Shown here piece after piece: positions 28,280 to 64,000 of a stretch of 64,000 nt of DNA. The notes under the pieces were generated by a model that saw only the letters and a program-made list of their open reading frames with translations, ran no database searches and was not told the origin of the DNA. The stretch is taken from the NCBI GenBank assembly GCA_012295275.1, contig CM022672.1:25296001-25360000 (forward strand). Reading direction: 5' to 3'. The translations under genes and the position numbers were made by a program. The DNA is from Chrysomallon squamiferum (lineage: Eukaryota; Animalia; Mollusca). The number at the start of each line of letters is the position of its first letter. The first letter of the stretch is position 1.

Positions 28280-28356
28280 TTAAAAGTATGGCTGATCAGG
28301 TTTGGATAGAAGGTGACATGCCATTCTGAATGAATGTTCTCCGAAACTAAGGTTAC
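28280..28356 (-). CDS. TIR copy 1 terminal exon C (SNLSFGEHSFRMACHLLSKPDQPYF*); full model 385 aa
   Basis: tttttattatttttccag acceptor, phase 1. Peptide homologous to the independently predicted terminal exon at 58774-58874. Confidence 0.72.
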
Positions 28357-28960: not shown

Positions 28961-29038
28961 AACCAAATAAAACCAAACAAAACGAAACAACAAGAAATAT
29001 TAATAAACACGTAAAATGAATATAAACATGTAACTAAC

Positions 29039-29176
29039 TAGATGGAAGCGATATACTGGAAAAGACAGACGACATTTTGTTCCAGCCAGAAGACAGCAGA
29101 ACTCGGACACTGCTGAAAGATTCCAACTCAGCCGGACTTCCACTGCTGCCGCTTATATTGAGTTCAGAAAACGCCA
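29039..29176 (-). CDS. TIR copy 1 exon B (VAFSELNISGSSGSPAELESFSSVRVLLSSGWNKMSSVFSSISLPS), 138 nt, phase 1-1
   Basis: ttttgttctatttcag acceptor, A|GTTAGT donor. Shares the AFSE start with exon A and LLSSG..MSS.F with the hybrid exons. Confidence 0.68.
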
Positions 29177-29806: not shown

Positions 29807-29989
29807 CTGGGTTTGGGCTGGAAACTCGTTTGGTGTTTTCCGTGGAAGGAGATATGGTGAATGACTTCTCTCTGTAATAGCTATAGGACCTCTCGATGAA
29901 GCTGTAGTTTTGGTATTCATCGGCTTCTCTTTTCTGTGCCATATTGACGTTCATAACCTCACTGTCACCTCCCTTCATTTCACTAAAAG
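29807..29989 (-). CDS. TIR copy 1 exon A' (tandem duplicate of exon A), 183 nt, phase 1-1
   Basis: Same splice sites as exon A; net 27 nt shorter, frame kept. Confidence 0.65.
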
Positions 29990-31026: not shown

Positions 31027-31236
31027 CTGGGTTTGGGCTGGAAACTCGTTTGGTGTTTTCCGTGGAAGGAGATCTGGTGAATAACACCGCTCTGCAATAG
31101 CTATAGGACCTCTCGATCAAGCTGTAGTTTTGGTATTCTAACCCTTCGTTCTGGAAAACAAATTCATCGGCTTCTCTTTTCTGGGCCATATTGAAGTTCA
31201 TAACCTCACTGCTACCTCCCTTCATTTCACTAAAAG
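31027..31236 (-). CDS. TIR copy 1 exon A (AFSEMKGGSSEV...RVSSPNP), 210 nt, phase 1-1
   Basis: cattag acceptor, CAG|GTACTG donor; open and in frame with the TIR exon. Confidence 0.7.
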
Positions 31237-32046: not shown

Positions 32047-32596
32047 CTCCCTCTTTCTTTGCAGTGTTGCTGTCAGTCAAACTCAGACAGTCATCAGCCT
32101 GGAGTCGCATCCTGTACTTTTCTATTCCTGACTTCAAGGCACGATCCAGCCTACCAGTCCAGTCTTCTCTCCTTTCTCTCCAGTGATTTATAGGTAGAAA
32201 AAGGACTCTTCTCAAGTTCAGCTCCCTGGGTATTTCATCCTGTGTTAATCCAAAGGCGATAGGAATAAGACGATAAGCCTGCTGCTCTTCCAACAACAAC
32301 TTGAAGACTGAATTCTGACAGTAATGTTCCCAAGAACTTCGTAAAAACTCCTGGGTCAGAACGATCAGGACAAAAAAGGAACTATCAAAAGTTTCGAAAT
32401 GTTCGTCAAAGAAAGACTGACCTGGACAGGCATCGCGAGATACAACATAGTTAGGACGATAGCCAAGCTGTTCTAAAGTGTCTGATATAAATAAAGCTTT
32501 GTCTTCATCTTCTTCAACTGATTCCTTATGGATAATGTAACAATAGTATTTAAATTCAGGAGGTAATTCAGGAGGTAATTCATCAGCCATTACCAT
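32047..32596 (-). CDS. TIR gene copy 1, TIR-domain exon (first coding exon; acceptor at 32611)
   Basis: TIR pattern: betaA YCYIIH, DE..AL...LEQLG, BB loop RDACPG, betaC FVLIVLTQEFLRSSW, betaD RLIPI, EIPREL. Acceptor ttcttcag; G|GTAAA donor (phase 1) conserved in all four copies. Confidence 0.9.
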
Positions 32597-33230
32597 TTTT
32601 TCCTCAAAATTCTGAAGAAAAAAAAGAAACAATAAAAAAATTAAAAAAAAAAAAAAATTGAAAAATTAAATTAAGTATCTAATCCACACACACACACATT
32701 CACATATATGAATGTGTGTTTGTGTTTTATACACACATATACATAAACACACATACATTCATATATGTTCGTGAAGGAAAATGCATCAACAGTAAATTAA
32801 GTACGTTATTAAACTGGCGCAGACATAACAATACATTTAGAACTGTGTTTAAAACCAACGCTGTCAGAATTTTGACCTAGCCAGTCATGGATCGACTGAA
32901 CATAGAAATATATCGCAGAATGACGTGAGTAGGTAATGAAGCTAAGATTTGCATTTTAGAATCTGTAATTTTCACGAGTAATTTCATGACGGCCCTGGGT
33001 TATTATTAAATACCCGGAAGGCCTTAACTTTTTTCATTGTAACTGTTTTCCCGCGCAAAATGAATCGCCATTAAATACCAAAATATAGATTGAACAATAT
33101 CATTATTCCTTCATGTAGTTCGAAATTCAGAATTCGAATGAACTTTCTTTGTATTCTATCCTTAATTATTTCATTCATTACAATATTTAGCCATTAATAC
33201 AGTGTAAAGGCAGAGAGAAAACAAACTTAC

Positions 33231-33290
33231 TGCATCGTCAAGGTAAAAATGCTCGATAGGAAATTACGTATTGGCTAACTTCTATATTTA
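33231..33290 (-). other. Probable non-coding 5' exon of the TIR genes (donor CA|GTAAGT; equivalents end at 41285, 47040, 52707); 5' boundary unknown
   Basis: Strong donor at the homologous position upstream of all four TIR exons, each of which has an acceptor just before its ATG. Confidence 0.5.
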
Positions 33291-35537: not shown

Positions 35538-35734
35538 TCACTGAAGCTCGAAACCTGAATAAAAAGCAGACGACATTCCGTCCAAGCCAGAAGACAGAAG
35601 AATGGTGAAACTGTCGCTTGTACAGTTTTGGGATTCTAACCACTCGTCCTGGAGAACAGATTCTTCAACTTCTTTTTTCTGAGCCATACTGCAGGGAAAA
35701 ACGTAATAGTCACCTCCGTTCATTTCGCTGAAAG
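35538..35734 (-). other. Orphan A/B-hybrid terminal exon (AFSEMNGGDYY...LLSSGLDGMSSAFYSGFELQ*), duplicate of 49352-49548
   Basis: ttcattag acceptor, phase 1, open to TGA. No TIR exon of its own; lies downstream of copy 2. Confidence 0.55.
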
Positions 35735-35897
35735 CTAATGAAAAAATGAAAGAATAAATAAATAAATAAATAATTAAATAAATAAATAAATCGATAGCAG
35801 CTTTATAAGGCTGTAAATGAATAAAGAAAGAAATAATTATAATAAGATGACAATGGTAATTACAATTTAAAAATACAAAACAAAACATACAAAAATA

Positions 35898-35974
<77 letters not shown>

Positions 35975-36541
35975 CATCACATTAACGTCTCAATTTTTAT
36001 CCAACAGTTGTTGTTTTTTCTTCAGTTAAATAAATAAATCAAGTAACTGTCAGCAAATCACAAAATTTGACTAAATTTTATCATAAAAATACAGGGGGAT
36101 AACTCTTCAAAGGCCCGATCATTTTCCACCTTGTTTGATTTGAAATACTGTTCTGTACTACAGTTACAGTGTATGCAATCCAGCTTTGGGTGGTGATAAG
36201 CATAATTCTTTACTCTCTGACTCTTTCTGCCTCTCTTTCTCTGTCTCTCTCTATATATCTCTACTGTCTTTATCTCTCTGTCTCTGTGTGTGTCTCTCTT
36301 TATCTTTGTTTGCCTCTCTTTCTCTCTCGGGCCAGTTCTCTGCAACATAACTACGATATTACTGTCTATAATGTTATACTATAGTTGTCTATCGTGTTGT
36401 GGAAATAGGCGAAGAAAATAAAGATGTAATCGAAATCGAACTTGTGTAGTTTTTGAGTGAGGGCGCTTTACGCACCTGGCCACATTAGTATACACTGTAG
36501 GCTAATATTAATATAAACTAATGATATTAATAACTCTAATT

Positions 36542-36606
<65 letters not shown>

Positions 36607-36689
36607 TCTTCCACTGACACTGCGCCCAAAACAAACCATCTCTCCAAAATCATGCACTGCTTTCTTCTCTGTAATAATAACACACACGT

Positions 36690-37208
36690 ACACAGAATTC
36701 AGTAAATTTGTACATTTACTAGAACAGTTTTAGATACAGTTCAGTACATTTGTACACTTACTAGAACAGTTTTAAATACAGTTCAGTAAATTTGTACACT
36801 TACTAGAACAATTTTAAATACAGTACAGTATTTGTATACTTATTAGAACAATTTTAATACAGTACAATACATTTGTACACTTACTAGTACAGTTTTAAAT
36901 ACAGTACTATACATCTGTACACTTACTAGGACAGTTTTAAATACAGTACAGTATATTTGTACAATAACTACAACAGTTTTAAATACAGTACAGTACAATT
37001 GTATACTTACTGGAATAATTTTAAATGCAGTACAGTACATTTGTACACTTACTAGAACAGTTTTAAATACAATACAGTATTTGTACACTTATTAGAACAT
37101 TTTTAAATACAGTACAGTATTTGTACACTTACTAGAACAGTTTTAAATACAGTACAGTAAATTTGTACACTTACTAGAACAGTTTTAAATACAGTAAAGT
37201 ACATTTGT
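36690..37208. repeat. Shorter array of the same minisatellite downstream of TIR copy 2
   Basis: Same unit and variant order as about 27370-27948. Confidence 0.9.
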
Positions 37209-37538
37209 TATTTGTTATTTGATATAAGTAATATGATATATATATATATATATACAATCAAACTAATTTTTATTAACATTTTTTTTTTATACAAAGCTTC
37301 TTGTTTTTATATGTGTACTTAAAAGGTTTAATTCGTCCGTTTCTCAAGTCAAAGTCTTTGATGACGTCCTCAGATCCGTTGCTAGAAAACTAATTATTCT
37401 TCTGAGGCTGCTACAATGTGCTAACTTTGCCTATAGGATAATACTGCCTTCAAGATGAAATGACTTCCATCACAGTTATCAAAATTAGAAGAGGAAGGGA
37501 GACAATCACTATTTACGCTCTCACTGACATAAATTTAG

Positions 37539-37615
37539 TTAAAAGTATGGCTGATCAGGTTTGGATAGAAGGTGACATGCCATTCTGAATGAATGTTCCC
37601 CGAAACTAAGGTTAC
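37539..37615 (-). CDS. TIR copy 2 terminal exon C
   Basis: 77 nt to TAA, near-identical to 28280-28356. Confidence 0.68.
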
Positions 37616-37660
37616 CTGGAAAAATAATAAAAAGCAAGCAAATAAACAAACCGACAAGCA

Positions 37661-37738
<78 letters not shown>

Positions 37739-38324
37739 ATTAATTAATTAATTAATTAAAGGTCTTATAGCTGATAGATGCAGGTTCCACATAGAAATAG
37801 TTAACATCATCGCACGAGCTTTAGTCCTTTGAATATCTGAACAGTTTTCCCATTGCATTATCGTGTATAGTTCTTAATTATAATACTAATTACGCTTTCT
37901 TCCATTGGTCCTAATTAAAAATTTGTTTCTCATCCATTTTCTACTTTTTTCTTTATCAAACACAAACACAAGACAGCGAAAAAGCGAGCGAGCGAGAGAG
38001 AAAGATAGGGCAACAATAGCAACGACAATAACAAATCAAAGAAAACAAAACAACACTATAAGAGACAGAAAACATAGAAAAACAAAATAAAACACACACA
38101 CATACACATACACAAACAAAAATAAGTAATCAAATAAATCAAATAAAACGACCTTAATAATAATAATGATAATAATAATAATAATTAAAAAAAAAAAAAA
38201 TTCCAAAAAGAACAAAAAAAAAAAAAAAAAAACCCTCCAAGAAACCAACCAAATAAAACCAAACAAAACGAAACAATAAGAAATATTAATAAACACGTAA
38301 AATGAATATAAACATATAACTAAC

Positions 38325-38462
38325 TAGATGGAAGCGATATACTGGAAAAGACAGACGACATTTTGTTCCAGCCAGAAGACAACAGAACTCGGACACTGCT
38401 GAAAGATTCCAACTCAGCCGGACTTCCACTGCTGCCGCTTATATTGAGTTCAGAAAACGCCA
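38325..38462 (-). CDS. TIR copy 2 exon B (contains FSELNIS)
   Basis: 138 nt, near-identical to 29039-29176, same splice sites. Confidence 0.65.
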
Positions 38463-39091
38463 CTGAAATAGAACAAAATTTGTGTGATTTGCAGTCTGAG
38501 TTCTCACCCTGTACAAATCTGCTTTGTGCAAAATATACCAGGGGTTGTGTTTGCGTCAGAAACGTTCGTTCAATTGTTACGCTCTACATGGAAGCCTGCA
38601 AGGAAGCCTTGATACTCACTGTTGATAGTTCTGTGTTGATTTTGTGTGTTGATGTTCTGTAGTGATAATGTTTTCTTTGTGAGGAAGGGTTGTTAAATAC
38701 TTTTACATTTAAGCAAATAGTGTATAACTTGAAATAGCACCGTTTATGTTTTAAGTGTTTGCGTCTATGTATGTGTATATATACACGCAACACAAACACC
38801 ACACACAGACACCAAACGTGCACACACATACATACACGGATATTAATGATATAATTTCTGTTAAAAATAATAAATGGATTTGTATGTAGAAAGCTTATTT
38901 ATGACATGCGAGAAAATATCTCTCTCTATCTACTTGTGTATGTATTACCTCTCTCTATGTATGTATGTATGTATCTACGTATGTATATCTATGTTTGTAT
39001 GTGGGTATGTATATCACGCAAACAAACAAATTCATGCACATACATGATACACAAAAAGACATATGACAGACACAGTTTATTATAACAGTAC

Positions 39092-39296
39092 CTGGGTTTG
39101 GGCTGGAAACTCGTTTGGTGTTTTCCGTGGAAGGAGATATGGTGAATGACTTCTCTCTGTAATAGCTATAGGACCTCTCGATGAAGCTGTAGTTTTGGTA
39201 TTCATCCCTTCGTTCTGGGAAAACAAATTCTCTTTTTTTTCTGTGCCATATTGACGTTCATAACCTCACTGTCACCTCCCTTCATTTCACTAAAAG
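39092..39296 (-). pseudogene. TIR copy 2 exon A, 205 nt: frameshifted, or a consensus error
   Basis: Splice sites intact but length is not a multiple of 3; indels around 39203-39240. Confidence 0.55.
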
Positions 39297-39343
39297 CTAA
39301 TGAATGAATGAATGAATAAATAAATAAACAAATAGAGAGATGC

Positions 39344-39436
<93 letters not shown>

Positions 39437-39645
39437 TATCGTCAAATATAAACTAGGAACTATTATTAAAATCACCTGTAACCTAATAATATGAACCTAA
39501 GCTATTATTAATATCAAATCTAATTCTTGAAAAGTAGTGGTAACAATTACATTATTGTTAATGTTAACTGTGATGCCTTAATAGTGTCAAGCTAAAAAAA
39601 ACAACAACACACACACAAAAAAAACAACAACAACAAACATAAGAG

Positions 39646-39699
<54 letters not shown>

Positions 39700-39987
39700 G
39701 AAAATTTATATTGGTAAATGAACTATTTTTAATAATAATTGTAAACATTTATTAATACCAGCTGTAAATTATTATCAATATCAGCAATGTTATTAATCAG
39801 AAGAAATAAACCCCAATAATAAAAAAAACACCAAAACATCTAATTTATATTGATTTCTTTTCTAATGTCCAAAGAAAGCGTTATCAACATATATATCTTT
39901 AAAAATATATATATATATATATATTTTTTTTTGCTGTATGTAAGAATCTAGGAGATATTCCGATGAAGGACAGTATGCTATTGTTTG

Positions 39988-40018
<31 letters not shown>

Positions 40019-40124
40019 TTTAAAACAAAATTATTTTCGAGATAATAGAGACAGAGTGAGGAATGGACTGATGCGAAGTATATATATATGTGTGTGTGTG
40101 TGTGTAGGTATTATACGTGTTTAC

Positions 40125-40656
40125 CTCCCTCTTTCTTTGCAGTGTTGCTGACAGTCAAACTCAAACAGTCATCAGCCTGGAGTCCCATCCTGTACTTTTC
40201 TATTCCTGACTTCAAGGCACGATCCAGCTTACCAGTCCAGTCTTCTTTCATCTCTCTCCAGTCACTTGTAGGCAGAAAAAGGACTCTTTTCACGTTCAGC
40301 TCCTTGGGTATTTCATCTTTTCTTAATCCAAAGGCGATAGGAATAAGACGATAACCCTGCTGGTCATTCAACAGCTCAAAGAAGGCTGAATTCTGACAGT
40401 AAATTTCCCAAGTACTTTGTAAAAACTCCTGGGTCAGAATGATCAGGACAAACAAGGAACTGGCTAAAGTTTCGAAATGTTCGTCAAAGTAAGAGTGACC
40501 TGGACAGGCATCGCGAGATGCAACGTAGTTAGGACGATAGCCAAGCCGTTCTAAATTCTTTGACATAAATAAAGCTTTCTGATCATCTTCTCCAACTGAT
40601 TCATTGTTGATAAAGTAACAACAGTATTTAAATTTACAAGGTACTAGATCAGCCAT
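40125..40656 (-). CDS. TIR gene copy 2, TIR-domain exon (acceptor at 40677)
   Basis: Intact paralogous TIR ORF with RDACPG; same phase-1 donor. Confidence 0.9.
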
Positions 40657-40695
40657 TACGATTTTTTCGTCAAAATTCTGAAAAAAAAAAAAAAA

Positions 40696-40744
<49 letters not shown>

Positions 40745-42494
40745 ATATTAAGTATCTAATCCACACACACACACACATTCATATATATGTATGTTTGTGT
40801 TTTATACACACACATCTTTTATACGTGAAGGGTAATGTATCAACAGTAAATTAAGTACGTTATTAAACTGGCGCAGCCATAACAATACATTTAGAACTGT
40901 GTTTAAAACCAACGCTGTCAGAATTTTGACCTAGCCAGTCATGGATCGACTGAACATAGAAATATATCGCAGAATGACGTGTGTAGGTAATGAAGCTAAG
41001 ATATGCATTTTAGAATCTGTAATTTTCACGAGTAATTTCATGACGGCCCTGGGTTATTATTAAATACCCGGAAGGCCTTAACTTTTTTCATTGTAACTGT
41101 TTTCCCGCGCAAAATGAATCGCCATTAAATACCAAAATATAGATTGAACAATATCATTATTCCTTCATGTAGTTCGAAATTCAGAATTCGAATGAACTTT
41201 CTTTGTATTCTATCTGTAATTATTTCATTAATTACAATATTTAACCATTAATACAGTGTAAAGGCAGAGAGAAAACAAACTTACTGTATTGTCAAGGTGA
41301 AAAGGCTCGATAGGAAATTACGTATTGGCTAACTTCTATATTTAACTGCGATTATTTAGGTCAGGCGTCGCTTCTGACTTACGTTGTTTGATGCATATCA
41401 TGTGATCGTTGAGTGATCATAACTGTTTAATTTTTTAATTAAATATTTCACATTACAATAAAATGTATTATAAAATTAAAATTATATGGTGCAATAATAT
41501 TATAATTTTAAAACTTTAGCACTTCCTGGATCGTTAATTGCAGGTTCGGCTCTAATAGACTGTATTTTTTGAACGGTTTGTTTGCGAGGGGATAGCTTTA
41601 AAAATTACGTTTTACTGTTTCAGTAATCGTTGTTGGTCGATTGGCAAAGACACAGAAATGACACACAGGATTTCATAAGCTGAGTCATGTTTTCACGTTT
41701 TTTTTTTTTTTTTTTATTGTGTTTTTCTCTTTTGTGACTGTTATCTTTGTTTCCGGTCTATGAGAAGGTGTATATGCAAACTATCTTTTGCTGCTTGTCG
41801 AAAAACAGTAGCCAATACCGGATGTATGACATAACTGCTGCTGGACGAAATCACCCCTTTTCATTACAGTTCGGAATAAATAACAGAATAAAAAATAAGT
41901 AAATAACAAATGAATAAATAAAAGGGAATCAGTAAAAAATTAATTAAATAAAATAATAATAATAAATTTAAAAAATAAAATCCCCACATAAATGCATCTA
42001 TAAAATTCCTTATAAATAAAAAAAAAAAAAAATGTACACATTTTTTAAATAAATAAATAAATAATTTAAAAAAATAAAATATTAAAATTTAAAATAAAAA
42101 CATACCTCCCCGACAAAAAAAAGAAGAAATATATATATATTAAACTGACAATAACACTACAGAAGAGGAGTTATATTTTATTTACATCTTCACAGTTAAA
42201 ACTGCACTTCAAAACAGAAATTTAACTGACATGTTGATTTTTCTACATACATAACAATAATCCTTTGTAATGAATGAAAGAAAGAATGAATAAAATAAAT
42301 AAATAAAATAAAAAGATTAATTTTTTTATTATATTTCTTCTGCTATTAATACTATGCTACTATCACTATTACTTCTACCAATATCTGAAATAATATTAAT
42401 AATAATAATAGTAATAATAATAATAATAAAATATAATAACAAAAACAACAATGACAAGAACAATAATATTAACAACAGTAATGATAACAATAAT

Positions 42495-42915
42495 GGTATT
42501 ATTATTGCTAATACAATCTAACATTAGTTTAAAACAATAGTAATGTTTACCGTCCTGTTAGTATCTTCTTTCTTATCCTTAATATCTAAAATATTATGAG
42601 CAGAGTCCAAATAACGTTTTGGAGGTAACATATCCAGATCTAGGGATGGGATATAGAAAGAAGAGTATACAGCGCATATATTTTTGGTCTTTTTTCGTTT
42701 GTTTCGTTTTGGTAATAACGATATAACTATCGTTTTGAAAGTTGTGTTTGCACTCTCCCCTTTTCATTACAGTTCCCAATAAATAACGGAATAAAAAATA
42801 AGTAAATAACAAATGAATAAATAAAAGGGAATCAGTAAAAAATTAATTAAATAAAATAATAATAATAAATTTAAAAAATAAAACTCCCACATAAATGAAT
42901 CTATAAAATTCCTTA

Positions 42916-42956
<41 letters not shown>

Positions 42957-43419
42957 TACACATTTTTTAAATAAATAAATAAATAATTTAAAAAATAAAA
43001 TATTAAAATTTAAAATAAAAACATACCTCCACGACAAAAAAAAAAAAGAAAAGAAAAAAAGGAAGAAATATATATATATATATATATATATAACAAGAAC
43101 TAAGTTAAACAATAATATCGTATTTGATCAGTTTTAAGTAATGGATATGTACCTCGTGTCATGATGACCTGAAATAAAGTCAACACAAATCTTGTCATGG
43201 TTCAGATAATAAATACAGTATCGCCTAGAAGTGACGTAGACGTTTTAACATTAACTAGGCAAGAACAAACATGTCATACTTATATTTGTTATAGATAATA
43301 ATATACACAGCGTTTATCTGAAAACATATTATTTACATAACAGCCATATATACCATACTATATATGTGTGTGTGTGTATATTTTGTATGCACGAATGGAT
43401 GTACTTGTATGCTCATCTC

Positions 43420-43513
<94 letters not shown>

Positions 43514-43523
43514 CATATATGTA

Positions 43524-43560
<37 letters not shown>

Positions 43561-44936
43561 GCTTCTATATATGTAAGCATAATTCATTTAACAAAATATT
43601 ACATTACCGTATATCAGTTTATGAAACATTAATATACTTATATACGTTTATGTACAGTACACACCGCATTCAAAGCTTCCTTGTATCTATATTAATATAC
43701 ATATTAGAAGTGGAAGTCCAGTTATACTTCAGTAATCCGTTTATATATGGCACGTATGTTAGAATTGGTCAAAACCGTGTATATATTATGTACAAACGAG
43801 TTTTCATAGAGAAAGTACTTATAGGATGTGAACAAAAACAAAGAAACAAATAAAAATAAGTAAATAAATACAAAAGAAGAAAGAAAAAACGAGAGAAAAA
43901 AAAAACCACGAAAAGAAAAGAAAATATTTTAATTTGCTACGTATACATAACACAAAATTCCGAGTATATATATACTGTCTCTATGTATATGTATCCATAT
44001 GTGTGTATAGATATATACACACACAGAGACACACACATACACACACACATGCACACACAGAGACAGTATAATTACTATACTGATACATACAGTATCTAAT
44101 GAACAGAATACACAAGTAGACTTTATGCTATCACAGACAAAGTGATCAAGAATTATACATATTTCCCCATCGACATATTCGCTGAACTTAAGAATCCGGG
44201 TATTTTCTCAAATCTGATAATCTACATTTAAAAAAAAACTAATGACAGAAAAACGTTTTGACAATGACCATTCAGATGTGGAAAGGATATTCTGGTCTGC
44301 TAAGAAAGTGACACAACATCCGGTAAAACAGGAGAAGATAATGACCGGAGGCCGGCTCTTCTGTTCTTGAGGCTGAAAAAAACAACAAATTAATAATAAT
44401 AAAGTGAAAATATTATATCAGAATTTATATATATACATATGTTGTTTTTTCAGTGTGTTCTTACTTCATATAATTTATGTAAGTTTAGTTTTTCCTTGAT
44501 GTAATGTGTATGTATGTATATATGTATGCATGTACGAACGTATATATGTAAGTATGTTCGTATGTGTCAGCACAAAAATGTAGGTGACTATATATTTAGA
44601 TGTATGTGGATGTGTATACATAGATATGCAAAAAAAATGTATTATTCTATACACAAATACACAGACTCACATGAACAGTTTTATGAGATTTCTATGGAAA
44701 TTACATTACACTCCAAATCAGATTTAGATGTTATAATAATGATGATGATGATGATGTTAATTATGATTACGACGATAATGGTGATGATGATAATAATATA
44801 TATTATACATTTTGTAAAATTATAACCCTCTTCGTTTTTCATGTTTCATCCATAGTTAGTAAGTTAATATATTAACAGAATATATAAGCAAACATATTCT
44901 CTAACCGCTGAAACTCTTTATACAAATGGCCTTTGA
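42495..44936. repeat. Segmental duplication block Z, direct copy of about 57147-59460 (last intron part, last exon and 3' region of the large-exon gene)
   Basis: Collinear high similarity, e.g. 43130-43380 vs 57710-57970 and 44100-44420 vs 58600-58940. Confidence 0.9.
44272..44372 (-). CDS. Probable terminal exon of TIR copy 3 (ASRTEEPASGHYLLLFYRMLCHFLSRPEYPFHI*); model 208 aa
   Basis: gtttttttcag acceptor, phase 1, in frame with the copy 3 donor; duplicate of 58774-58874. Confidence 0.62.
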
Positions 44937-44971
44937 TAAAGTAGTGTCGAGTCTAATGTTTATATTAAAAG

Positions 44972-45077
<106 letters not shown>

Positions 45078-45292
45078 TCTCTCTCTCATACATACTTACT
45101 CAGATCACATATACACACCATAGAGTTTCCAGCCCAAACAAACAAAGTCATGCACATACATGATACACAAAAAGACATATGACATAGTTAATTATTACAT
45201 TACTTGGGTTTGGGCTGGAAACTCGTTTGCTGTTTTCTGTGGAAGGAGATCTGGTGAGCGACACCGCTATATCATATATATATGTGAGTCTG

Positions 45293-45390
<98 letters not shown>

Positions 45391-45445
45391 GCATCTCTCG
45401 ATTTATTTATTTATTTATTCATTTATTCATTCATTCATTCTTTAG

Positions 45446-45655
45446 CTTTTAGTGAAATGAATGGAGGTGTCAGTGAGGTTATGAGCTTCAATATGGCACA
45501 GGAGAAAGAAGCCGATGAATCTCTTTTCCAGAATGATTGGTTAGAATCCCAAAACTGCAGCAGCAACACGACGTCCTGTGAATATCATATAGCGGTGTCA
45601 CTCAGCAGATCTCCTTCCAGAGAAAACAGCAAACGAGTTTGCAGCCCAAACCCAA
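45446..45655 (+). pseudogene. Inverted exon A paralogue (210 nt, acceptor kept, donor lost) inside copy 3
   Basis: AFSEMNGGVSEVMSFNMAQEKEADE... lies on the plus strand, opposite to every other family exon. Confidence 0.8.
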
Positions 45656-45877
45656 ACGAGTTTCCAGCGCAAACAAACAAATTCATGCACATACATGATA
45701 CACGAAAAGACATATGACAGACATAGTTAATTATTACAGTACTTGGGTATTTTCGAGTTAATAATAGAGACAGAGCTAGGAATGGACTGATAGAGATGCG
45801 AAGTGTATATATATATGTGTGTGTGAATAAAATAAAAAAGATTATAGAAAATTGTTGCAGTCCATATAAGTGTTTAC

Positions 45878-46403
45878 CTCCCTCTGCCTGTGCAGTAAAC
45901 CCCAGAAGGTTGTTAGCCTGGCGTCCCCTCGTGTACTTTTCTATTCCTGACTTCAAGGCACGATCCAGCCTACCAGTCCAGTCTTCTCTCCTTTCTCTCC
46001 AGTGATTTATAGGTAGAAAAAGGACTCTTCTCAAGTTCAGCTCCCTGGGTATTTCTTCCTGTGTTAATCCAAAGGCGATAGGAATAAGACGATAAGCCTG
46101 CTGCTCTTCCAACAACAACTTGAAGACTGAATTCTGACAGTAATGTTCCCAAGAACTTCGTAAAAACTCCTGGGTCAGAACGATCAGGACAAAAAAGGAA
46201 CTATCAAAAGTTTCGAAATGTTCGTCAAAGAAAGACTGACCTGGACAGGCATCGCGAGATACAACATAGTTAAAACGATAGCCAAGCTGTTCTAAAGTGT
46301 CTGATATAAATAAAGCTTTGTCTTCATCTTCTTCAACTGATTCCTTATGGATAATGTAACAACAGTATTTAAATTTACGACGTAATTTATCAGCCATTAC
46401 CAT
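45878..46403 (-). CDS. TIR gene copy 3, TIR-domain exon (acceptor at 46418)
   Basis: TIR core nearly identical to copy 1, different N-terminus and exon tail; phase-1 donor G|GTAAAC. Confidence 0.9.
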
Positions 46404-47658
46404 TTTTTCCTCAAAATTCTGAAGAAAAAAAAAGAAACAATAAAAAAAATTAAAAAAAAAAAAAAATTGAAAAATTAAATTAAGTATCTAATCCACACAC
46501 ACACACATTCATATATATGAATGTGTGTTTGTGTTTTATACACACATATACATAAACACACATACATTCATATATGTTCGTGAAGGAAAATGCATCAACA
46601 GTAAATTAAGTACGTTATTAAACTGGCGCAGACATAACAATACATTTAGAACTGTGTTTAAAACCAACGCTGTCAGAATTTTGACCTAGCCAGTCATGGA
46701 TCGACTGAACATAGAAATATATCGCAGAATGACGTGAGTAGGTAATGAAGCTAAGATTTGCATTTTAGAATCTGTAATTTTCACGAGTAATTTCATGACG
46801 GCCCTGGGTTATTATTAAATACCCGGAAGGCCTTAACTTTTTTCATTGTAACTGTTTTCCCGCGCAAAATGAATCGCCATTAAATACCAAAATATAGATT
46901 GAACAATATCATTATTCCTTCATGTAGTTCGAAATTCAGAATTCGAATGAACTTTCTTTGTATTCTATCTGTAATTATTTCATTCATTACAATATTTAGC
47001 CATTAATACAGTGTAAAGGCAGAGAGAAAACAAACTTACTGTCAAGGTAAAAATGCTCGATAGGAAATTACGTATTGGCTAACTTCTATATTTAACTGCG
47101 ATTATTTAGGACAGGCTTCTGACTTATGTTGTTTGATGCATATCATGTGATCGTTGAGTGATCATAACTGTTTAATTTTTTAATTAAATATTTCACATTA
47201 CAATAAAATGTATTATAAAATTAAAATTATATGGTGCAATAATATCATAATTTTAAAACTTTAGCACTTCCTGGATCGTTAATTGCAGGTTCGGCTCTAA
47301 TAGACTGTATTTTTTGAACGGTTTGTTTGCGAGGGGATAGCTTTAAAAATTAGGTTTCAAATATATATTATTTTATGTATATTTAGATGTGTGAGTGTGT
47401 TTCTTTAAATATGTGTACGTTTGAGTGGTGTTTACATTTGTGTTGGTCTGTCAGATTACGAGTAAAACTGATGTGTAAAACAGATTTTAATAATATATAT
47501 TTATTTTTAAAACATATTTATTGTCGAGATTCTGGATGTTCAACATGACCACTGTTATTATGTTATAACTGAAAATCAGGTACAAAACTTTATTTCTAGA
47601 AATTCAGAATCGTTTTACGATTTGTATCCTTAACCTGTATATATGTGTGTGTGTCTGT

Positions 47659-49351: not shown

Positions 49352-49548
49352 TCACTGAAGCTCGAAACCTGAATAAAAGGCAGACGACATTCCGTCCAAG
49401 CCAGAAGACAGAAGAATGGTGAAACTGTCGCTTGTACAGTTTTGGGATTCTAACCACTCGTCCTGGAGAATAGATTCTTCAACTTCTTTTTTCTGACCCA
49501 TACTGCAGGGAAAAACGTAATAGTCACCTCCGTTCATTTCGCTAAAAG
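49352..49548 (-). pseudogene. A/B-hybrid terminal exon downstream of pseudogene copy 4
   Basis: Acceptor and phase fit the copy 4 donor; 5' half resembles exon A and 3' half resembles exon B. Confidence 0.6.
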
Positions 49549-51032: not shown

Positions 51033-51612
51033 CTCTGTCTTTCTGTGCAAAGTTTCTGACAGTCAAACTCGGAGAGTCATTAGCCTGGAGTCCCCTCGTG
51101 TATTTGTCTTTTCCTGACTTCAAGGCACGATCCAGCTTACCAGTCCAGACTTCTTTCATCTTTCTCCAGTCACTTGTAGGCAGAAAAATTACTCTCTTCA
51201 CGTTCAGCTCTCTGGGTATTTCATCTTGTCTTAATCCAAAGGCGATAGGAATAAGACGACAACCCTGCTGCTATTGCAACAGCTCCAAGAAGGCTGAATT
51301 CTGACAGATTCTAAAACCCTATCTTAGCTTCATTAGCTACATACGTCATTCTGTGATATGTTCTTGGGAACTTTGTAAAAAATCCCGGGTCAAAACGGTC
51401 GGGACAATCACGGAACTATCTAAAGCTTCGAAATGTTCGTCAAAGTAAGAGTGACCTGCACAGGCATCACGAGATACAACGTAGTTAGGACTAAAGCCAA
51501 GCTGTTCTAAAGTGTTTGATATAAATAAAGCTTTCTCTTTGTCTACTTGAACTGGTTCATTATGGATGATGTAACAGTAGTATTTAAATTCACGAGGTAA
51601 CAGACTAGACAT
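51033..51612 (-). pseudogene. TIR gene copy 4, disrupted TIR exon
   Basis: Homologous TIR sequence with a ~50-bp insertion (51308-51357) bringing a TGA, a second in-frame TAG near 51271-51273, W->Q in the SSW motif and BB loop RDACAG. Confidence 0.88.
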
Positions 51613-52917
51613 TACGATTTTCTCCCAGAATTCTGAGTAAAAAAAAAAAAAAAAATAAATAATAATAATAATAATAATAAATAAATAAATAAATAAAATA
51701 AAAATTTAGAAGAAGAAAGAAAGAAAAGCGAAAAGTTAATTAAAATAATTCATCTGCGTTTGTGTATGTATTTTCCAGACATATATACAAACTATATTCA
51801 TAAAAACATACGTACTTACGCGAGCACACACACTTACAATCACACACATACATCCATACAAACATGTGAAGAATAATGTATCAACAGTAAATAAAATACG
51901 TTATTAAACTGGCGCAGCCATAACAATACATTTAGAACTGTGTTTAAAACAACGCTGTGAACATTGTGACCTAGCCAGTCATGGATCGACTGAACATTTG
52001 AAACATATCACAGAATGACGTGTGTAGGTAATGAAGTTAAGATAGGGTTTTAGAATCTGTAAGCTGTGGAAAATTCTACCAAGTACAAACAGAAGATAAT
52101 GTTCCATAAAAAACTGAACCGAAATACAGCCTGCTTTATCTGTCTATTAATTAATTTATTTTATCTTATTCATTTATATACCTATTTCATTTATTTTATT
52201 TTATTTATTTTATTTTATTTTATTTTATTTTATTTTATTTTATTTTATTTTATTTACTGTCTAGGAGAACATGTTATAAATGACGTTATTTCTTTTCATA
52301 GTTGTAATTTCGAGACTGCCCTAGATTCACTAAGTATAATTATAAATACTTTTTCTCTATCTCTCTCCTTTTCTCAGTACTAGAAATAATGGATGCATGA
52401 ATGAAAAGAGGACAGTTCATTTCTTACCGCACTAAACAGATTAAACCGATGTGAACTGAAATCAGGAATCCCGTTGACAAATGCACAAAGTATCAGTCAA
52501 ACTGCTATTCTGTCGCAAAATGAACCGCCATGAAATATCCAAATGTAGATTGAACAATATTATTATTCCTTAATGTAGTTCGAAATTCAGACTCAGAATG
52601 AACTTTCTTTGTTTTCTATCTGTAATGATTTCATTCATTTCATCAAAATGGAATTAAAATATTTAGCCGTTAATACAATGTAAAGGCAGAGAAAATTCAA
52701 ACTTACTGTATCGTTAAAATATTAGCTAAGTTCTATATTTAACTACGTATCTAGAACAGCCAAAGAATAGACGTCATTTACCTGAATCATACCGTTTTTG
52801 ATCTTAGTCTGCTGTGACATAATCTTTTCTTCTTCAACCTATTTTTATTTATTTGTTTATTTTAAAGCACTTTTTATCTCTTTTGTTTGTTTGTTTGTTT
52901 GGTCTTTCTTCTTCTTC

Positions 52918-53998: not shown

Positions 53999-55548
53999 TG
54001 TAACTAGTCACTTGGCGTAAAGCCCAAGACCGTCAGACATTAGGCCTAATGACTAAAATTTTCAGGAATTAAGGCCAATAGACTAAATTTTGGTTCGTGT
54101 TGTTGGACATTCTCTTTTGCTTACATCTGTTCATTGAAGGGATTAGTGGTTCAGTTCAATTCTTTATTATCGTAAACTTTACAGCTTATTGATATACAAT
54201 GTCAATAATAAAAAAATGCAAGAAGTACAAATAGAGACAATATGATAAAAAAGAAATTTAATATAGCACATAAATTATATCTAACTAAACAATAATTTTC
54301 TACACTGAAATGCTTTAAACAAATATGTTCGCTAATTGCAGTGACTTGAATTTTCAATCTTATCTTCAATCTCACCATTGTTACATAAAATACATATTCC
54401 TATATCTCCCAGTCTCAACTGTGAACATAGCCTCTCTTTTGTTAAGTATCTTTTATAAATTATTGGTATAGATTTGACTAAATAAACCTGAAATGTTACA
54501 CCGTCTGTAATGTATTTATGTAAATTGTCACATTTCACAGATGTATTTAGCTGAACTGAAAGATTCCGCCTTGCTTGGTCATATATTATTTACTTAATTA
54601 TGCACAAATAAAGGAAGAGTACTTCTTGATTATGTACCAGCTAAAGAAGATCTCTGTTGACCCCAGGAAGAAAACCCACCATGAGTACTTACCACCTCAT
54701 GTACAAGTTTGAAAACCTTCAATGTGAAGACGTGCAGAAACTGACCAAAAAGCACCAAACAGATGAAGACACACCTCTGTACTTCGTTTCCACTGAAGAC
54801 ATCTTTGACGTCATCAAGCGGACACACATCTCAACAGGCCAAGGTGGACGTGATCGGATGCTGAAAGAACTATTCAAAATGTATGTGAATGTGGCACATG
54901 AAGCTATCGAACTGTTCACGTCGCTATGCATGGACTGTCAACAGAAACGCAAGAGGCCAACAACCAAAGGAGTGGTGGTCGAACCTATTCTGACCAAGGA
55001 GTTTTCGTTACGTAGCCAAGTGGATCTTGCAGACATGCAGTCCTTACCCAGTGGAAAGTACACGTGGAGCATGGTTGTAAGGACTATTTGACCAAGTCCT
55101 GTATTCTCAGTATAGCACTGCTATTGTTGGATGACATGAACAAAGAATGTGCAATGTCTGTTAGAGCAGCAGTGTCAAAGGAATCATCTGCAGGGGGAGA
55201 AAGGTTTGTAAAATGCAGCTGTGGAGGACAAAGAGGTGTCAAACAAAACGTTGTAAATGTTTCAAGAACAATATTTTGTGCAACTCAACATGACACTCAA
55301 GTTTGAATTGCTGTTATAAATAGAACACTACTTGATGCGTTTCTAAATAAATGTTTTCCTGCAATTCCTGTCATTCATTTTGATTCAGTCATTTTGCCTA
55401 ATGTCTAGAGGTCTATTTAAGTCGTTTGGCCCAATTCCTGGAAATTTTAGTCATTAGGCCAAACGCCTGACAGTCTTGGGCATTAAGTTAAATGCCTAAA
55501 CATTTCAGGCATTAGGCCAAATGCCTAGTTTGACTACTGACTGTAACA
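53999..55548 (+). mobile_element. Degenerate Ginger/GIN-type DNA transposon with KRBA2/SCAND3-like integrase relic (ORF 54657-55091 plus Cys-rich tail fragment)
   Basis: Eroded HHCC zinc finger (H.STGQGGRDRM...C..CQ) followed by PI...F..R.QVDL.DMQ integrase start. Imperfect ~80-bp inverted repeats (54005-54088 vs 55416-55495), TGT...ACA ends; absent from the paralogous sites near 33655 and 47460. Confidence 0.8.
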
Positions 55549-58773: not shown

Positions 58774-58874
58774 TCAGATGTGGAAAGGATATTCTGGTCT
58801 GCTAAGAAAGTGACACAACATCCGGTAAAACAGGAGAAGATAATGACCAGAAGCCGGCTCTTCTGTTTTCGAGG
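58774..58874 (-). CDS. Terminal exon of the large-exon gene (SSKTEEPASGHYLLLFYRMLCHFLSRPEYPFHI*)
   Basis: Poly-T-cag acceptor, phase 1, in frame with the 59825 donor; homologous to TIR exon C. Confidence 0.78.
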
Positions 58875-59824: not shown

Positions 59825-62722
59825 AAGATGCATCTTTTAAAGAATTTTCTTCTTCGGATCTTAAAGTTTCGCTTTTCTTACTGGCTTGCTGAATCGATGT
59901 TTCGTTTTCAGGGACAAATCCACTTTCATTTTTGAACGCTGTCGTTTCTTGCCAGCTGTCATAAGACAATTCCTCGGCGTGCCAGATTTCACCTATCACA
60001 ATATCACTGTTTTCCTTGGTGTCGTCGGAAATGCTGCTGTTGTTTGACGTTGTCTTCTCGATGATGGCTGTTTTAGTGATGGTTGAGCCAACGGACGAAT
60101 TTTTCTGAGAATTCGTAATGTTGTTTTCTGAATAAGGTTTGTTATCTGAATCAACAATAGTCTGTAGAGGTTGTTTTGCTGTTCCATTGCTCTTGGTGAA
60201 ACCTCTCTCCTCTCTGGCTGCATCAGTTTTGGTTATTTTGACCTTTACAGCTTCTGTGGTTTTCTTATCTTTGAAACCACTTCTGTTCTTTTCTGTTGTT
60301 TCTGAAGAAGATTTCTGAATGACTTTTTCTTCTGGATTCTTTGAAGCTGTATGACTGTCAGAAATATAACCAGTGGTTTGAACAGTTGTCTTGGCAGATG
60401 CATCAGTAACAGATCTAATGGTTGGTGGTTTCTTCAAACCACTGGAGTCACCGCTAGACTTTCTGGTCTCAGCAGACAACTGTTTTGTTCCTAAATTCAG
60501 TGAAGTTTCATTCTGTTCATGCTTGAGGTTTGAACTGCTTGTAATGGGTTTCTTCATCGAGCTGAGGTTTTCTGTTTGTTTTAAAACTTCAAATTTAGTT
60601 TCTTCGCTGGTTGAAGACAGAGAGACTGGACTATCGTCTTTCAACGTCTCTTTAGTTTCACTCGCCAGAACGTTTTTCTGTTTCGTTTCAGAGTTTATAG
60701 TCGCAGTTTCTGTTTTAATCTCTAATACTTCTTTAAGTTTCCCTTCGTTCTGCGTTGTCATGGTTTCAGTTTCTGTTTTAGGTTTCCCTTGGTGATGCGT
60801 CGTCGCGATTTCAGTTTCTGTTTTCGTGGGTAAGTACGATACTCTGCCCATCGGCTCTGGATTCATTTCATCGCAGAACTTGAGAATATGTTCCTGCAGT
60901 CTAGCTGCAGTTGAATTAGATTCAGTAATACCAGTTTTATTATCACTCACATTTGAAAGTTTACTATCGCTTGGCTGCTTTTCGTTTACTTTAGGATTCT
61001 GATCTGCGGCAGGTATTTTACTCAGTGACGTTGATGTTTCTTGTGCACTGACAACGATATCGGTATTTGTTTTTGCTCCTCGAATCGATGGCAAGATTTT
61101 ATTTTCGAGATCTGCACGAGATAAAGATGCACTATTGCCAAAATCCTTAACATTATAAAGTCTGTCGTAAACATTTGTCGAATGTCGTCTGAACGATTCA
61201 TTCATCATTTGTCCAATGTCTGGATTCACTGAGATTCTGGTTGTGTTTAGCTTTTGAGCTTCTGTTTGTCTTCCAACTGAAAGAGGAACGTCCCTCCTCA
61301 GCCCTGCTGATTCCAGCCTGTTCACAACTGATGTCTCAATGTCATCCTGGCCGGGATGTCGACGAGAACTCGAGTTTTCATCGTGGGCCGTTTCCTTAGC
61401 AACAAATTTCTCTTTCTCACCCAGTTTGGATTTACTATTAATATCGTCAGAAATTCCTTTGTTTTGTTCCCCTTTGTTTACATTTTTGGTCTCTTTACTA
61501 ATTTCTGCACCATCGCGTTTGTCTGTTTTCATATCTGAACTTTGAACTTTGAGGGAAGGAGATTTCTGAATGATTCCACTGCGTTCTGACATTCCTATAT
61601 CAGTTTGGTCCTTATCGTCTCTAGATTCATATTTATGTGAAGAAATGGTATCGTTTAACTTCTTTTCACTGTCAGTATCCAGCGTGACTCTTTCTCTCTG
61701 ACTGCTCTTTCCTATGCTGGTTGGTTTGGACACATTTAAATCCGTTGAGTCTTCACTTGAAGTTTTCTTACTCATTATCACCACAGGCTGAAGGGAAGGA
61801 GGAAGAACGTTTTTAGACGTGAACTGATCCGTGCTCTCTTCCGAGATCTCATTTCGCAGTAGCTTCACCTCTTTCTTCTCAGTCGCTGCTGCCACCGATA
61901 CAAAAGACTGTTCTGTTTGTTTTAAACTTTGTTTTGCTTTAGTTTTGTTGTCAGTCAGCTTAATCACGGCAACAGGAGGAGCACCTACAGAATCTTTTGT
62001 TACTTTTGCTTCCGAGGACAGACTTCGTGAGGTTACCTTTGCCTGAGAAACGTCAGCTTCCAGCCTTGGTTTTTTGGCAATGTCTATGGACGCTGGAGGA
62101 GTTGCTGGCAGAGTGGATTTCATTATCTCAGTCTCTGTCGAGCCCAGATTGCTCGGCAAAGAGTGAACATCTTTTCTTCTTTGTTTATGGTCCAGTGTTG
62201 CAGACGTACGTAACGAATGCTGCTGAAGAGGATCTTGGATTTTAACGACCGTGTTCTCTGGCAGGATGGCTTCTGAGGATTTCCACTGGCGAGATGTAGA
62301 GGAAGCCAGTTTGTTTGCAGAGACATACTTTTCAGACACATCAACAACAGCTCGCGGAGATTCAGGCAACATTTCCTTTGGTCTTTTAGGCAACGTATGT
62401 CTTCCATCTTCATCTGCGTCTTCGGAAACGTGTTTGACGACGACAGGTGACGGCATGGGCGACACCTTTGAAGTTGCTTTTTTCTTTGATCCCCAGTCGA
62501 CTTCGTCTTTGCTGGGTACTGTGGTGTGGTATGAACCTCGTGGAGAAATGTTCACCACCGGAATTGGAGTCGGAGGTAACGTTGGTTTATTCATGGTGTC
62601 GTCGTTGTTGTTCAAGTTACCGTCTTGCTGAGCGGCTGACTCGGCGTCCTGCTTGTTTCTCGGTGATTTTACTGTTTTCCCGTCTGGAGAATCCCCTTTT
62701 CGTCTCACTGGGCTGCCTTTGT
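59825..62722 (-). CDS. 2898-nt internal exon (966 codons, phase 1-1) of an uncharacterised S/T/K/E-rich, probably disordered protein; 5' exons not identified
   Basis: Long non-repetitive, GC-elevated ORF; tctcttttcag acceptor and T|GTAAGT donor; no globular domain recognised. Confidence 0.9.
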
Positions 62723-63753
62723 CTGAAAAGAGACAACAACAACATTTAGTTATCATTTTTAAATCGAAATATAATCAAATAAATGTATTTAACAGAAGTT
62801 CCACAAATAAAAAAATATATAAAAAATAAAAATGAAAAAAATAATAAAATGAAATAAAATAAAATAAAATAAATATCAATAAACAAATAACTTTATTCAC
62901 TTATATTTAAATAAATAAATGGTATGAAAAACAACAGAAGACCATTATTGAATTTTAAGATAATTTGGTATAACCAAATAGTCAGAGACAGTAGAAATAG
63001 ACAGATAAACAACCAGATATAAGTAGATTTAAACTCCACACACACACACACACACACAGACACACACACTAAATATTAAAAATAAATAAATAAATAAAGA
63101 TAGGTAGATAGACAGATAGATTGATAGATAGATAGATTAGATAAATCGCTATACACACACGTAGGTAGACAAAAAGCCAGATACAAAGAAAGACCGTAGA
63201 AATTTCAATACTCATGGATGCTATACGATTATCTCCCTTCATCGCGCAAATGCCGCATCAGCATCAACGAGAACACGCACAAACAAAACATGGGAAACAT
63301 TTACACAAGGCACATTTGTTATATATACGTACCTGCACACACACACGCGCACATGTTCAGATTCAGTTTCTTCACCATGTCGCACGTGAAGGAAGAGAGA
63401 AGTACAATAAGAAAAAGAGCCTGTCAGTCAGTCATCGGTTTCTCTTCTTTTACATTTACAAGTATCGATCCCCGTTCTATATTTATCTCTAACATGTATT
63501 TACTTACAGGCAACACGATGTGGATGTCCACTTAATTTGGTTTGTTAGAACCCCTTTAAATATGTGTAATTCATAAATGTATATGTTCCTGTATATTCAG
63601 TCTTGCATCCATCTGTTGATATGTAACTCTATACCTACGTATAGACCCACCCACATGTACACGCAGACTCATAAACACAAAAAGGCGTATAATTATGTAT
63701 AATAGATATATAATGCAAACACCGACATCCATCAATATGTATGTATGGATGTA

Positions 63754-63929: not shown

Positions 63930-64000
63930 CACACACACACATATATATACATACATATATACACACACACACATATATATACATATATATACACACACAC

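What the first reader, a model, noticed from the sequence alone, without database searches (positions are those of the whole stretch)
58774..58874. Same C-terminal motif ends both the TIR proteins and the ~1000-aa disordered neighbour
Seen: TIR exon C ends FRMACHLLSKPDQPYF* and the large-exon gene ends YRMLCHFLSRPEYPFHI*. That is 8/16 identical plus F/Y, L/F, K/R, D/E and Y/F conservative changes. Several identical residues use different codons (AGA/CGG, TCC/AGC, CTA/CTT, CCT/CCA, CCA/CCT), which points to protein-level constraint. Both are phase-1 terminal exons. I do not recognise the motif. Inference: an amphipathic, possibly S-acylated membrane-targeting helix or a docking motif. The large gene may be an older family member whose TIR exon lies beyond 64000.
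Basis: partly seen in the sequence, partly recalled or inferred. Interest (0 to 1): 0.8.

Follow-up and report, generated by a model that had tools for sequence, protein, structure and literature searches.

The report
Snail TIR proteins share tail helix
A cluster of short immune-type TIR-domain genes and a neighbouring gene for a huge, probably unfolded protein end in the same unnamed 16-residue tail, and the large gene's counterpart in a vent snail carries a related TIR domain, so they likely form one family of signalling adaptors whose tail is predicted to be a helix that may anchor them to a membrane.

Summary
The two tails share 8 of 16 residues, far above background. An RNA contig splices the large exon to its tail exon exactly.

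A profile of the tail found one protein among 1.84 billion: the large gene's orthologue in the vent snail Gigantopelta aegis. Its longest isoform starts with a TIR domain 34% identical to the cluster's TIR and joins the linker at the same boundary. Its shortest isoform lacks the TIR and starts at a Met shared with the window gene.

The shared plan is TIR, low-complexity linker, conserved tail.

The TIRs lack the NADase glutamate and partly resemble TIRAP. The tail matches nothing in Pfam, the PDB or the papers searched. Best reading: scaffold adaptors positioned by a C-terminal amphipathic, possibly S-acylated helix (about 50%). A protein-docking motif is the close rival (35%). Function is untested, and the family is seen in only two species.

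The parts
58774..58874 (-). Terminal exon of the large gene (tail type D), phase-1 acceptor, encodes the conserved C-terminal helix and stop
   Evidence: spliced RNA contig; 22 of 32 residues identical to the G. aegis tail
59825..62722 (-). 2,898-nt phase 1-1 exon, 965 codons, Ser/Lys/Thr/Glu-rich low-complexity linker with short conserved islands
   Evidence: RNA contigs in 3 of 3 RNA runs laid; orthologous to G. aegis P0001/P0003
62592..62594 (-). First Met of the large exon (codon 43); aligns with the start Met of the TIR-less G. aegis isoform X3; would give a 956-aa TIR-less protein
   Evidence: use as a start is inferred
59919..59984 (-). Best-conserved linker island (16 of 22 identical), containing SWQET, a candidate TRAF2/3-type docking site
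   Evidence: the TRAF consensus is recalled, the MAVS PVQET comparison is
44272..44372 (-). Second copy of tail exon D, 1.5 kb downstream of TIR exon 3 and in phase with it
   Evidence: open 213-residue model; 4 substitutions, 3 silent and 1 K/R; splicing untested
45878..46418 (-). TIR exon copy 3, phase-1 donor
   Evidence: Pfam TIR_2 E 1.2e-9
32047..32611 (-). TIR exon copy 1, start Met inside the exon, phase-1 donor
   Evidence: Pfam TIR_2 E 6.7e-10
40125..40677 (-). TIR exon copy 2, phase-1 donor
   Evidence: Pfam TIR_2 E 6.1e-8
51033..51632 (-). TIR exon copy 4, broken by four in-frame stops, three of them within an inverted insertion of nearby intron DNA; probable pseudogene
28280..28356 (-). 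Terminal exon type C, copy 1 (tail of TIR gene 1)
37539..37615 (-). Terminal exon type C, copy 2 (tail of TIR gene 2)
31027..31236 (-). Candidate linker cassette exon B (210 nt, phase 1-1, open)
   Evidence: splicing untested
29807..29989 (-). Candidate linker cassette exon B, tandem copy (183 nt, open)
   Evidence: splicing untested
29057..29176 (-). Candidate linker cassette exon, diverged B type (120 nt, open, weak donor)
   Evidence: splicing untested
38343..38462 (-). Candidate linker cassette exon, diverged B type, copy 2 (120 nt, open)
   Evidence: splicing untested
39092..39296 (-). B-type exon copy, frameshifted (205 nt)
35555..35734 (-). B-type exon copy (180 nt, open) lying after tail C2; no in-phase TIR exon upstream within that gene
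49369..49548 (-). B-type exon copy (180 nt, open) downstream of broken TIR copy 4
45446..45654 (+). Inverted B-type exon directly behind TIR exon 3, with a 64-nt remnant at 45268-45205 on the minus strand

Best explanation
The large gene and the short TIR genes share a C-terminal tail and, through the G. aegis orthologue, a related N-terminal TIR domain, so they likely form one gastropod family of non-enzymatic TIR signalling adaptors whose tail is predicted to be a helix that likely positions them on a membrane. Shown: the shared tail, the splice of the large exon to its tail, the TIR in the orthologue, the common exon boundary, a TIR-less isoform in G. aegis, and loss of the NADase glutamate. 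Inferred, in order: (1) the TIR binds other TIR domains through its RDxxPG loop, as TLR adaptors do; (2) the linker is a disordered spacer that presents short docking sites, one of them a candidate TRAF site; (3) the tail folds as an amphipathic helix on a cytoplasmic membrane face, possibly fixed by S-acylation of the invariant Cys, so the protein works like a sorting adaptor (TIRAP, TRAM, dMyD88) built in the MAVS order of domain, disordered linker, C-terminal anchor; (4) the TIR-less isoform keeps tail and docking sites and would act as a competitor; (5) the short TIR genes arose from the large gene by partial tandem duplication with loss or replacement of the long linker, then multiplied and diverged, and one copy recently regained the large gene's own tail exon.
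For: Tail similarity far above chance, with silent codon changes. Exact splice in RNA. Single hit among 1.84 billion proteins is the orthologue, with the motif at its C-terminus. Isoform X1 has a TIR (Pfam E 2e-4, below the curated cut-off; 34% to TIR1, E 6e-20). X1 and X2 diverge at residue 187/188, matching the window's exon start; X3 starts at the Met shared with the window. All TIR donors and all tail acceptors are phase 1. Best PDB match of the G. aegis TIR is TIRAP (E 6e-6); window TIRs match TLR15, TLR2, MyD88, TRAM and TIRAP. The W+4 catalytic position is Cys or Ile (position defined in PMC7075850). Tail helix predicted at residues 6-23 (pLDDT about 90 for 11-20); hydrophobic moment 0.60, reached by 94 and 64 of 5,000 shuffles for the window and G. 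aegis tails. Known TIR sorting adaptors all need a membrane-positioning part (PMC6901815).
Against: The C-type tail has a weaker moment (0.42, 937 of 5,000 shuffles) and lacks the hydrophobic YLLL run. Invariant Arg, His and Ser lie on the polar face, which suits a specific binding partner better than plain lipid insertion. The tail is not polybasic (2 K/R in the last 22) and not a transmembrane segment (best 19-residue hydropathy 0.72 and -0.16). The window gene's own TIR exon was not seen. The short linker exons show no significant similarity to the large linker, and the 3' UTRs of tails C and D are unrelated (267 of 300 shuffles as good), so the direction of descent is not shown. Cluster TIRs are only 26-29% identical to the G. 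aegis TIR over the full alignment. The TRAF-type pattern is low in information (5 and 4 matches per protein). Only two species are known.
Confidence: 0.5

Rival explanations
1. Same family, but the tail is a protein-docking motif: a short helix plus P-x-x-P that binds a downstream partner, another family member, or the protein's own TIR domain as an autoinhibitory latch. The TIR-less isoform would then act in trans.
For: Eight positions are invariant across all three tail types (R, M, C, H, L, S, P, P), several on the polar face. The C-type tail keeps these while losing most hydrophobic bulk. Identity of 18 of 22 between species is more than a lipid-inserting helix usually needs (inference).
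Against: The large-gene tail also conserves a long hydrophobic run and a clear amphipathic face in both species. No match to any solved structure or family. An enzyme-recognition site for acylation could explain the polar-face conservation equally well (inference).
Confidence: 0.35
2. The tail is a portable last exon: the short TIR genes had a separate origin and captured the neighbour's last exon long ago, mainly as a way to end the transcript, and the motif matters only in the large protein.
For: This capture is visible today: the block holding tail D and its flank was duplicated (88% over 1,474 nt) and now lies in phase behind TIR exon 3. No similarity between the short and long linkers.
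Against: Tail C has kept 8 motif residues while silent sites and the UTR have diverged beyond recognition, so it is under protein-level selection in the TIR genes. The large gene's orthologue has a related TIR with the same boundary.
Confidence: 0.08
3. The tail is a degradation or trafficking signal (C-terminal degron or sorting signal) that keeps the adaptor level low.
For: It sits at the extreme C-terminus and is hydrophobic; short conserved termini often do this (recalled knowledge).
Against: The last residues differ among the three tails; conservation centres on the helix 5-15 residues before the end.
Confidence: 0.05
4. Chance or convergent likeness between unrelated short exons.
For: The match is only 16 residues long, and flanking DNA is unrelated.
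Against: Score twice the best background in the window; 1 of 20,000 shuffles; same terminal position and phase; TIR homology through the orthologue.
Confidence: 0.02

Closest known systems
Gigantopelta aegis XP_041368607/8/9, 'dentin sialophosphoprotein-like' isoforms X1-X3
   Same: Orthologue of the large gene: 42% over the first 329 aligned residues, tail 22 of 32 identical, same exon boundary, same internal Met.
   Different: Its database name reflects only composition. It has an extra repeat-like stretch in the linker. Whether G. aegis has short TIR copies with the tail is unknown: none passed E 0.001, but a tail as diverged as type C would probably not pass.
TIRAP/Mal (TIR group 10 of PMC7075850, passages read)
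   Same: Best solved-structure match of the G. aegis TIR; RDAxPG loop, charged AA loop, W-x-x-Y, P-x-E-L/I, no FW box; single TIR with a presumed membrane-positioning part.
   Different: The two Box 1 cysteines, the later Gln/Glu of the alpha-C patch and the Tyr/Arg of the alpha-D motif are not kept. TIRAP's anchor is a basic N-terminal lipid-binding stretch; here the candidate anchor is C-terminal, hydrophobic and not polybasic. Group 10 is described as chordate.
Arthropod MyD88 (dMyD88; PMC7075850 and PMC6901815, passages read)
   Same: Invertebrate TIR adaptor with a membrane-positioning segment C-terminal to the TIR.
   Different: No death domain here; the tail is far from the TIR in the large protein and is not basic.
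MAVS and miniMAVS (PMC3743401, PMC11763982, passages read)
   Same: Layout analogy only: N-terminal interaction domain, long disordered linker with a TRAF-type site (PVQET against SWQET), C-terminal anchor, and a domain-less form starting at an internal Met.
   Different: TIR instead of CARD; no transmembrane helix; the short form here comes from a different first exon in G. aegis, not from alternative translation. No homology claimed or tested.
Orphan and ecTIR-DC TIR proteins of molluscs (PMC9334734 and PMC6321704, passages read; the Gerdol 2017 survey seen only as a citation)
   Same: TIR as the only recognised domain, lineage-specific expansion, function unknown.
   Different: No passage read describes a shared conserved C-terminal tail or a 900-residue linker; assignment to a numbered ecTIR-DC family could not be tested.

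Membership tests
TIR domain proteins | TIR domain by profile | tested here: met
   Pfam TIR_2 above cut-off for 3 of 3 intact window exons; G. aegis X1 E 2e-4, below cut-off, supported by E 6e-20 to TIR1 and PDB matches
One family with the large gene | TIR exon upstream of the large exon in this genome | not testable with these tools
   No genome held beyond the window; shown only in the G. aegis orthologue
One family with the large gene | Shared tail motif, phase and exon boundary | tested here: met
TIRAP/Mal (group 10) | Box 2 RDxxPG loop with small residues | tested here: met
   RDACPG in copies 1-3, RDAVPG in G. aegis; motif
TIRAP/Mal (group 10) | Box 1 YDVCVCH with two cysteines | tested here: not met
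   window Box 1 has Cys in other positions, G. aegis none
TIRAP/Mal (group 10) | alpha-C patch W-x-x-Y-x3-Q-x3-E and alpha-D motif YPxELRxxY | tested here: not met
   only W-x-x-Y and P-x-E-L/I kept
TIRAP/Mal (group 10) | Basic N-terminal phosphoinositide-binding segment | tested here: not met
   TIR begins within about 10-20 residues of the start Met in all copies; feature
NADase TIRs (SARM1, plant, bacterial) | Catalytic Glu four residues after the alpha-C Trp | tested here: not met
   Cys in window copies 1-3, Ile in G. aegis; position
MyD88 | N-terminal death domain | tested here: not met
   No death domain by Pfam in X1 or the window exons; TIR is N-terminal
MAVS / tail-anchored proteins | C-terminal transmembrane helix | tested here: not met
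   best 19-residue Kyte-Doolittle mean 0.72 (D) and -0.16 (C); the usual threshold near 1.6 is recalled
Sorting adaptors (functional class) | Resides on a membrane before signalling and needs that location to signal | not testable with these tools
   Only a predicted amphipathic helix; definition
S-acylated proteins | Thioester-linked fatty acid on the Cys | not testable with these tools
   Cys invariant in 3 of 3 tail types, at the helix interface edge
ecTIR-DC families | Family-specific domain architecture and TIR clade | not tested
   The defining survey was not among the papers found; protein searches with the TIR found no scored relatives

The most novel reading that the evidence does not exclude
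This is the missing molluscan counterpart of the vertebrate TLR sorting adaptors: a TIRAP-like TIR held on membranes by a new type of S-acylated C-terminal helix, tuned by a built-in TIR-less competitor isoform, and diversified in this lineage by swapping tail exons among fast-evolving short copies.
Probability: 0.25. Interest if true: 0.7.

Novelty: new variant of a known kind. Interest (0 to 1): 0.5.

Why it matters
Molluscs have many TIR-only proteins of unknown role, and TIRAP, TRAM and TRIF orthologues were not found in Aplysia (PMC9334734). A TIR family with a conserved, uncatalogued 16-residue tail gives a small, directly testable handle on how such proteins are positioned or wired. It also corrects an annotation: the 'dentin sialophosphoprotein-like' gene of G. 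aegis encodes a TIR protein with TIR-less isoforms. The locus shows last-exon swapping in progress. The reach is limited for now, since the family is seen in two related animals only and no function is shown.

Tried and rejected
Word-index protein searches found nothing for the TIR or the large exon. They are weak negatives: one search missed P0001, which is in that collection and within the length range.

The Atlas gave no usable hit for the tail (0.77) and only generic TIR clusters for the TIR. The one metagenome locus (L001) is a chance match inside a bacterial ORF that looks like a phosphate-transport protein (label from my reading); rejected.

The tail has no match in Pfam, NCBIfam or PDB sequences (best E 0.13), and none by Foldseek. 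The wider structural search could not be run, and a single helix is uninformative there anyway. The TIR model from a 3-sequence alignment was unusable (pLDDT 38). The complex prediction of TIR with tail was not available, so docking on the TIR is untested.

An in-window candidate upstream exon near 63330-63380 with a good phase-1 donor (seen) does not match the RNA loose end; that loose end has 0 matches in the window at up to 3 mismatches. Homology between short and long linkers: not significant in 5 and 12 shuffle tests. ITIM, LIR, BC-box, pLxIS and CaaX readings of the tail (motifs recalled, checked by eye) fail because the key residue is not kept across tail types. Ten paper searches found no description of this tail; one search searched two tail 10-mers and two accessions and returned 0 papers. 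Subscription papers and supplements were not seen. Earlier-finding look-ups returned nothing relevant.

Full report
1. Setting. The window is AT-rich, microsatellite-rich animal DNA. No whole genome is held. On the minus strand lie a 2.9-kb exon (62722-59825), a short terminal exon (58874-58774), and a tandem array of four TIR exons with short exons between them. The species was not determined; the only named relative found is the vent snail Gigantopelta aegis, at 37% identity in the linker, so the window is likely from a related gastropod (inference).

2. The observation. The two tail types share 8 of 16 residues; 5 of the 8 use different codons and DNA identity is 28 of 48. The ungapped score is 56, against at most 28 elsewhere among 50,021 windows, and 1 of 20,000 shuffles reached the local score. 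All tail exons have phase-1 acceptors and all TIR exons phase-1 donors.

3. RNA. Five runs hold the large exon, four on record as RNA and all four from one study. I laid three RNA runs and the fifth run. RNA contigs cover the large exon in 3 of 3 RNA runs. One contig of X3 runs from 60075-59825 into 58870-58666 with four letters between, exactly the predicted splice. The tool's joint table listed none, so I read this from the table of pieces. A contig of X1 covers the tail with 173 of its 264 letters; its remainder is not among the rows shown. One X1 contig goes on for 20 letters upstream of the large exon. These letters are not in the window and, read by hand in the exon's frame, contain a stop four codons before the junction. 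It is a single contig end at depth 3.9. The TIR genes were not tested with RNA.

A two-sequence profile of the tail, run over 1,835,955,588 representatives, gave 1 protein at E up to 0.001. It is G. aegis XP_041368608, named 'dentin sialophosphoprotein-like'. It aligns with the large exon (42% over 329, E 1e-51) and ends in the same tail: 22 of 32 identical, 18 of the last 22, against 331 of 887 in the linker. Its cluster has three isoforms. X1 (1,405 aa) starts with a TIR (Pfam E 2e-4, under the cut-off) that is 34% identical to window TIR1 over 130 residues (E 6e-20) and 26-29% over the full alignment. X1 and X2 part at residue 187/188, where the window's large exon begins, and X3 starts at residue 243, the Met that aligns with codon 43 of the window exon. 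So the orthologue has one TIR-bearing and two TIR-less forms, and the stop-bearing loose end in the window's species fits a TIR-less form. The window gene's own TIR exon must lie beyond base 64000 and was not seen.

5. Anatomy of the cluster. Exon models TIR1 to C1, TIR2 to C2 and TIR3 to the second D copy are open to their stops. Short phase 1-1 B-type exons lie between; 6 of 7 minus-strand copies examined are open multiples of three, one is frameshifted; I chose their splice sites by eye. The second D copy came with a duplicated block of intron, exon and flank (88% over 1,474 nt). Its 4 substitutions are 3 silent and 1 K/R, none in the motif. The B exon behind TIR3 is inverted, so TIR3 would splice straight to D. 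TIR4 is broken. Pairwise dN/dS among TIR1-3 is 1.8, 3.8 and 1.9 on few silent sites, without a significance test. Some duplicates are 96-99% alike and could partly be allelic copies assembled in tandem; the D duplicate at 88% is too diverged for that.

6. What the TIR is. The window TIRs match TLR15, TLR2, MyD88, TRAM and TIRAP structures; the G. aegis TIR matches TIRAP best (E 6e-6). They keep RDxxPG and lack the NADase glutamate, so they are likely scaffolds. Against the group-10 definition they keep the loop, W-x-x-Y and P-x-E-L/I but not the Box 1 cysteines or the rest of the two patches, and they have no basic N-terminal segment. They may work like TIRAP; they are not TIRAP.

7. What the tail is. 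It has no match in Pfam, NCBIfam, PDB sequences, Foldseek or the Atlas. AlphaFold2 predicts one helix over residues 6-23. In type D and G. aegis the helix is amphipathic (0.60; 94 and 64 of 5,000 shuffles); in type C it is not significantly so (0.42; 937 of 5,000). It is neither transmembrane nor polybasic. R, M, C, H, L, S, P, P are invariant; the Cys sits at the edge of the hydrophobic face and R, H, S on the polar face. This splits the evidence between a membrane helix with an acylated Cys and a protein-docking helix. I favour the first modestly, because the hydrophobic run is conserved across species in the long form and because TIR sorting adaptors need such a part. The linker has short conserved islands; the best (16 of 22) contains SWQET, which recalls the TRAF2/5 site PVQET of MAVS, but the pattern is common.

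8. Comparison with what is known. The layout parallels MAVS, including a domain-less short form, and dMyD88 has a C-terminal lipid-binding part; both are analogies. TIRAP, TRAM and TRIF orthologues were not found in Aplysia, which has many unexplained TIR proteins. Papers: passages read from PMC6321704, PMC7075850, PMC6901815, PMC7895826, PMC9334734, PMC3743401 and PMC11763982; the rest seen as search listings only; no supplements read. The 2017 survey of bivalve TIR families was seen only as a citation and might already list this architecture. No paper among ten searches names the tail or the accessions (and those listed under Tried and rejected).

9. Verdict. Observation confirmed; family inference supported through the orthologue; mechanism unproven. 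A new variant of a known kind (TIR adaptor with a new tail), interest 0.5.

Noticed in passing
window 51290-51365 and 52002-52060: TIR copy 4 is interrupted by an inverted copy (59 nt, 95%) of intron DNA lying about 700 bases upstream, a likely template-switch insertion.
   Followed up: partly
window 54004-55525: Transposon-like insert between the large gene and TIR copy 4: inverted ends (81% over 83 nt) around an ORF fragment with a weak integrase zinc-binding match (E 0.002).
   Followed up: partly
window 20141-20100, 19284-19183, 8462-8376 (minus): Small exons of a downstream gene whose peptides resemble inositol polyphosphate 5-phosphatase A; this label is recalled, and Pfam and PDB scans of the short pieces gave no hit.
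   Followed up: partly
window 26900-27950 and 36700-37210: Minisatellite of about 39-42-bp units, duplicated with the TIR gene ends.
   Followed up: no
window 29038-29325 and 38324-38662 (plus): Open frames of 95 and 112 codons antisense to the diverged B-type exons; probably incidental.
   Followed up: no
window 32047-46418: TIR copies 1-3 show more amino-acid than silent change (dN/dS 1.8-3.8, few sites, untested), a hint of diversifying selection.
   Followed up: partly
window 62594-62540 and 61356-61290 region of the large exon: Further islands conserved with G. aegis, including a PxIxIT-like stretch at exon residue 54 and an amphipathic-looking stretch at residue 457; motif names recalled.
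   Followed up: no
window 61379: A 24-base in-frame deletion in one RNA run, and many single-base differences in the large exon, show polymorphism among individuals.
   Followed up: no
upstream of window 62722 (RNA loose end): The 20 loose letters plus two junction letters contain a perfect 6-bp inverted repeat (seen by hand); could be a 5' leader hairpin, chance or an assembly artefact.
   Followed up: no
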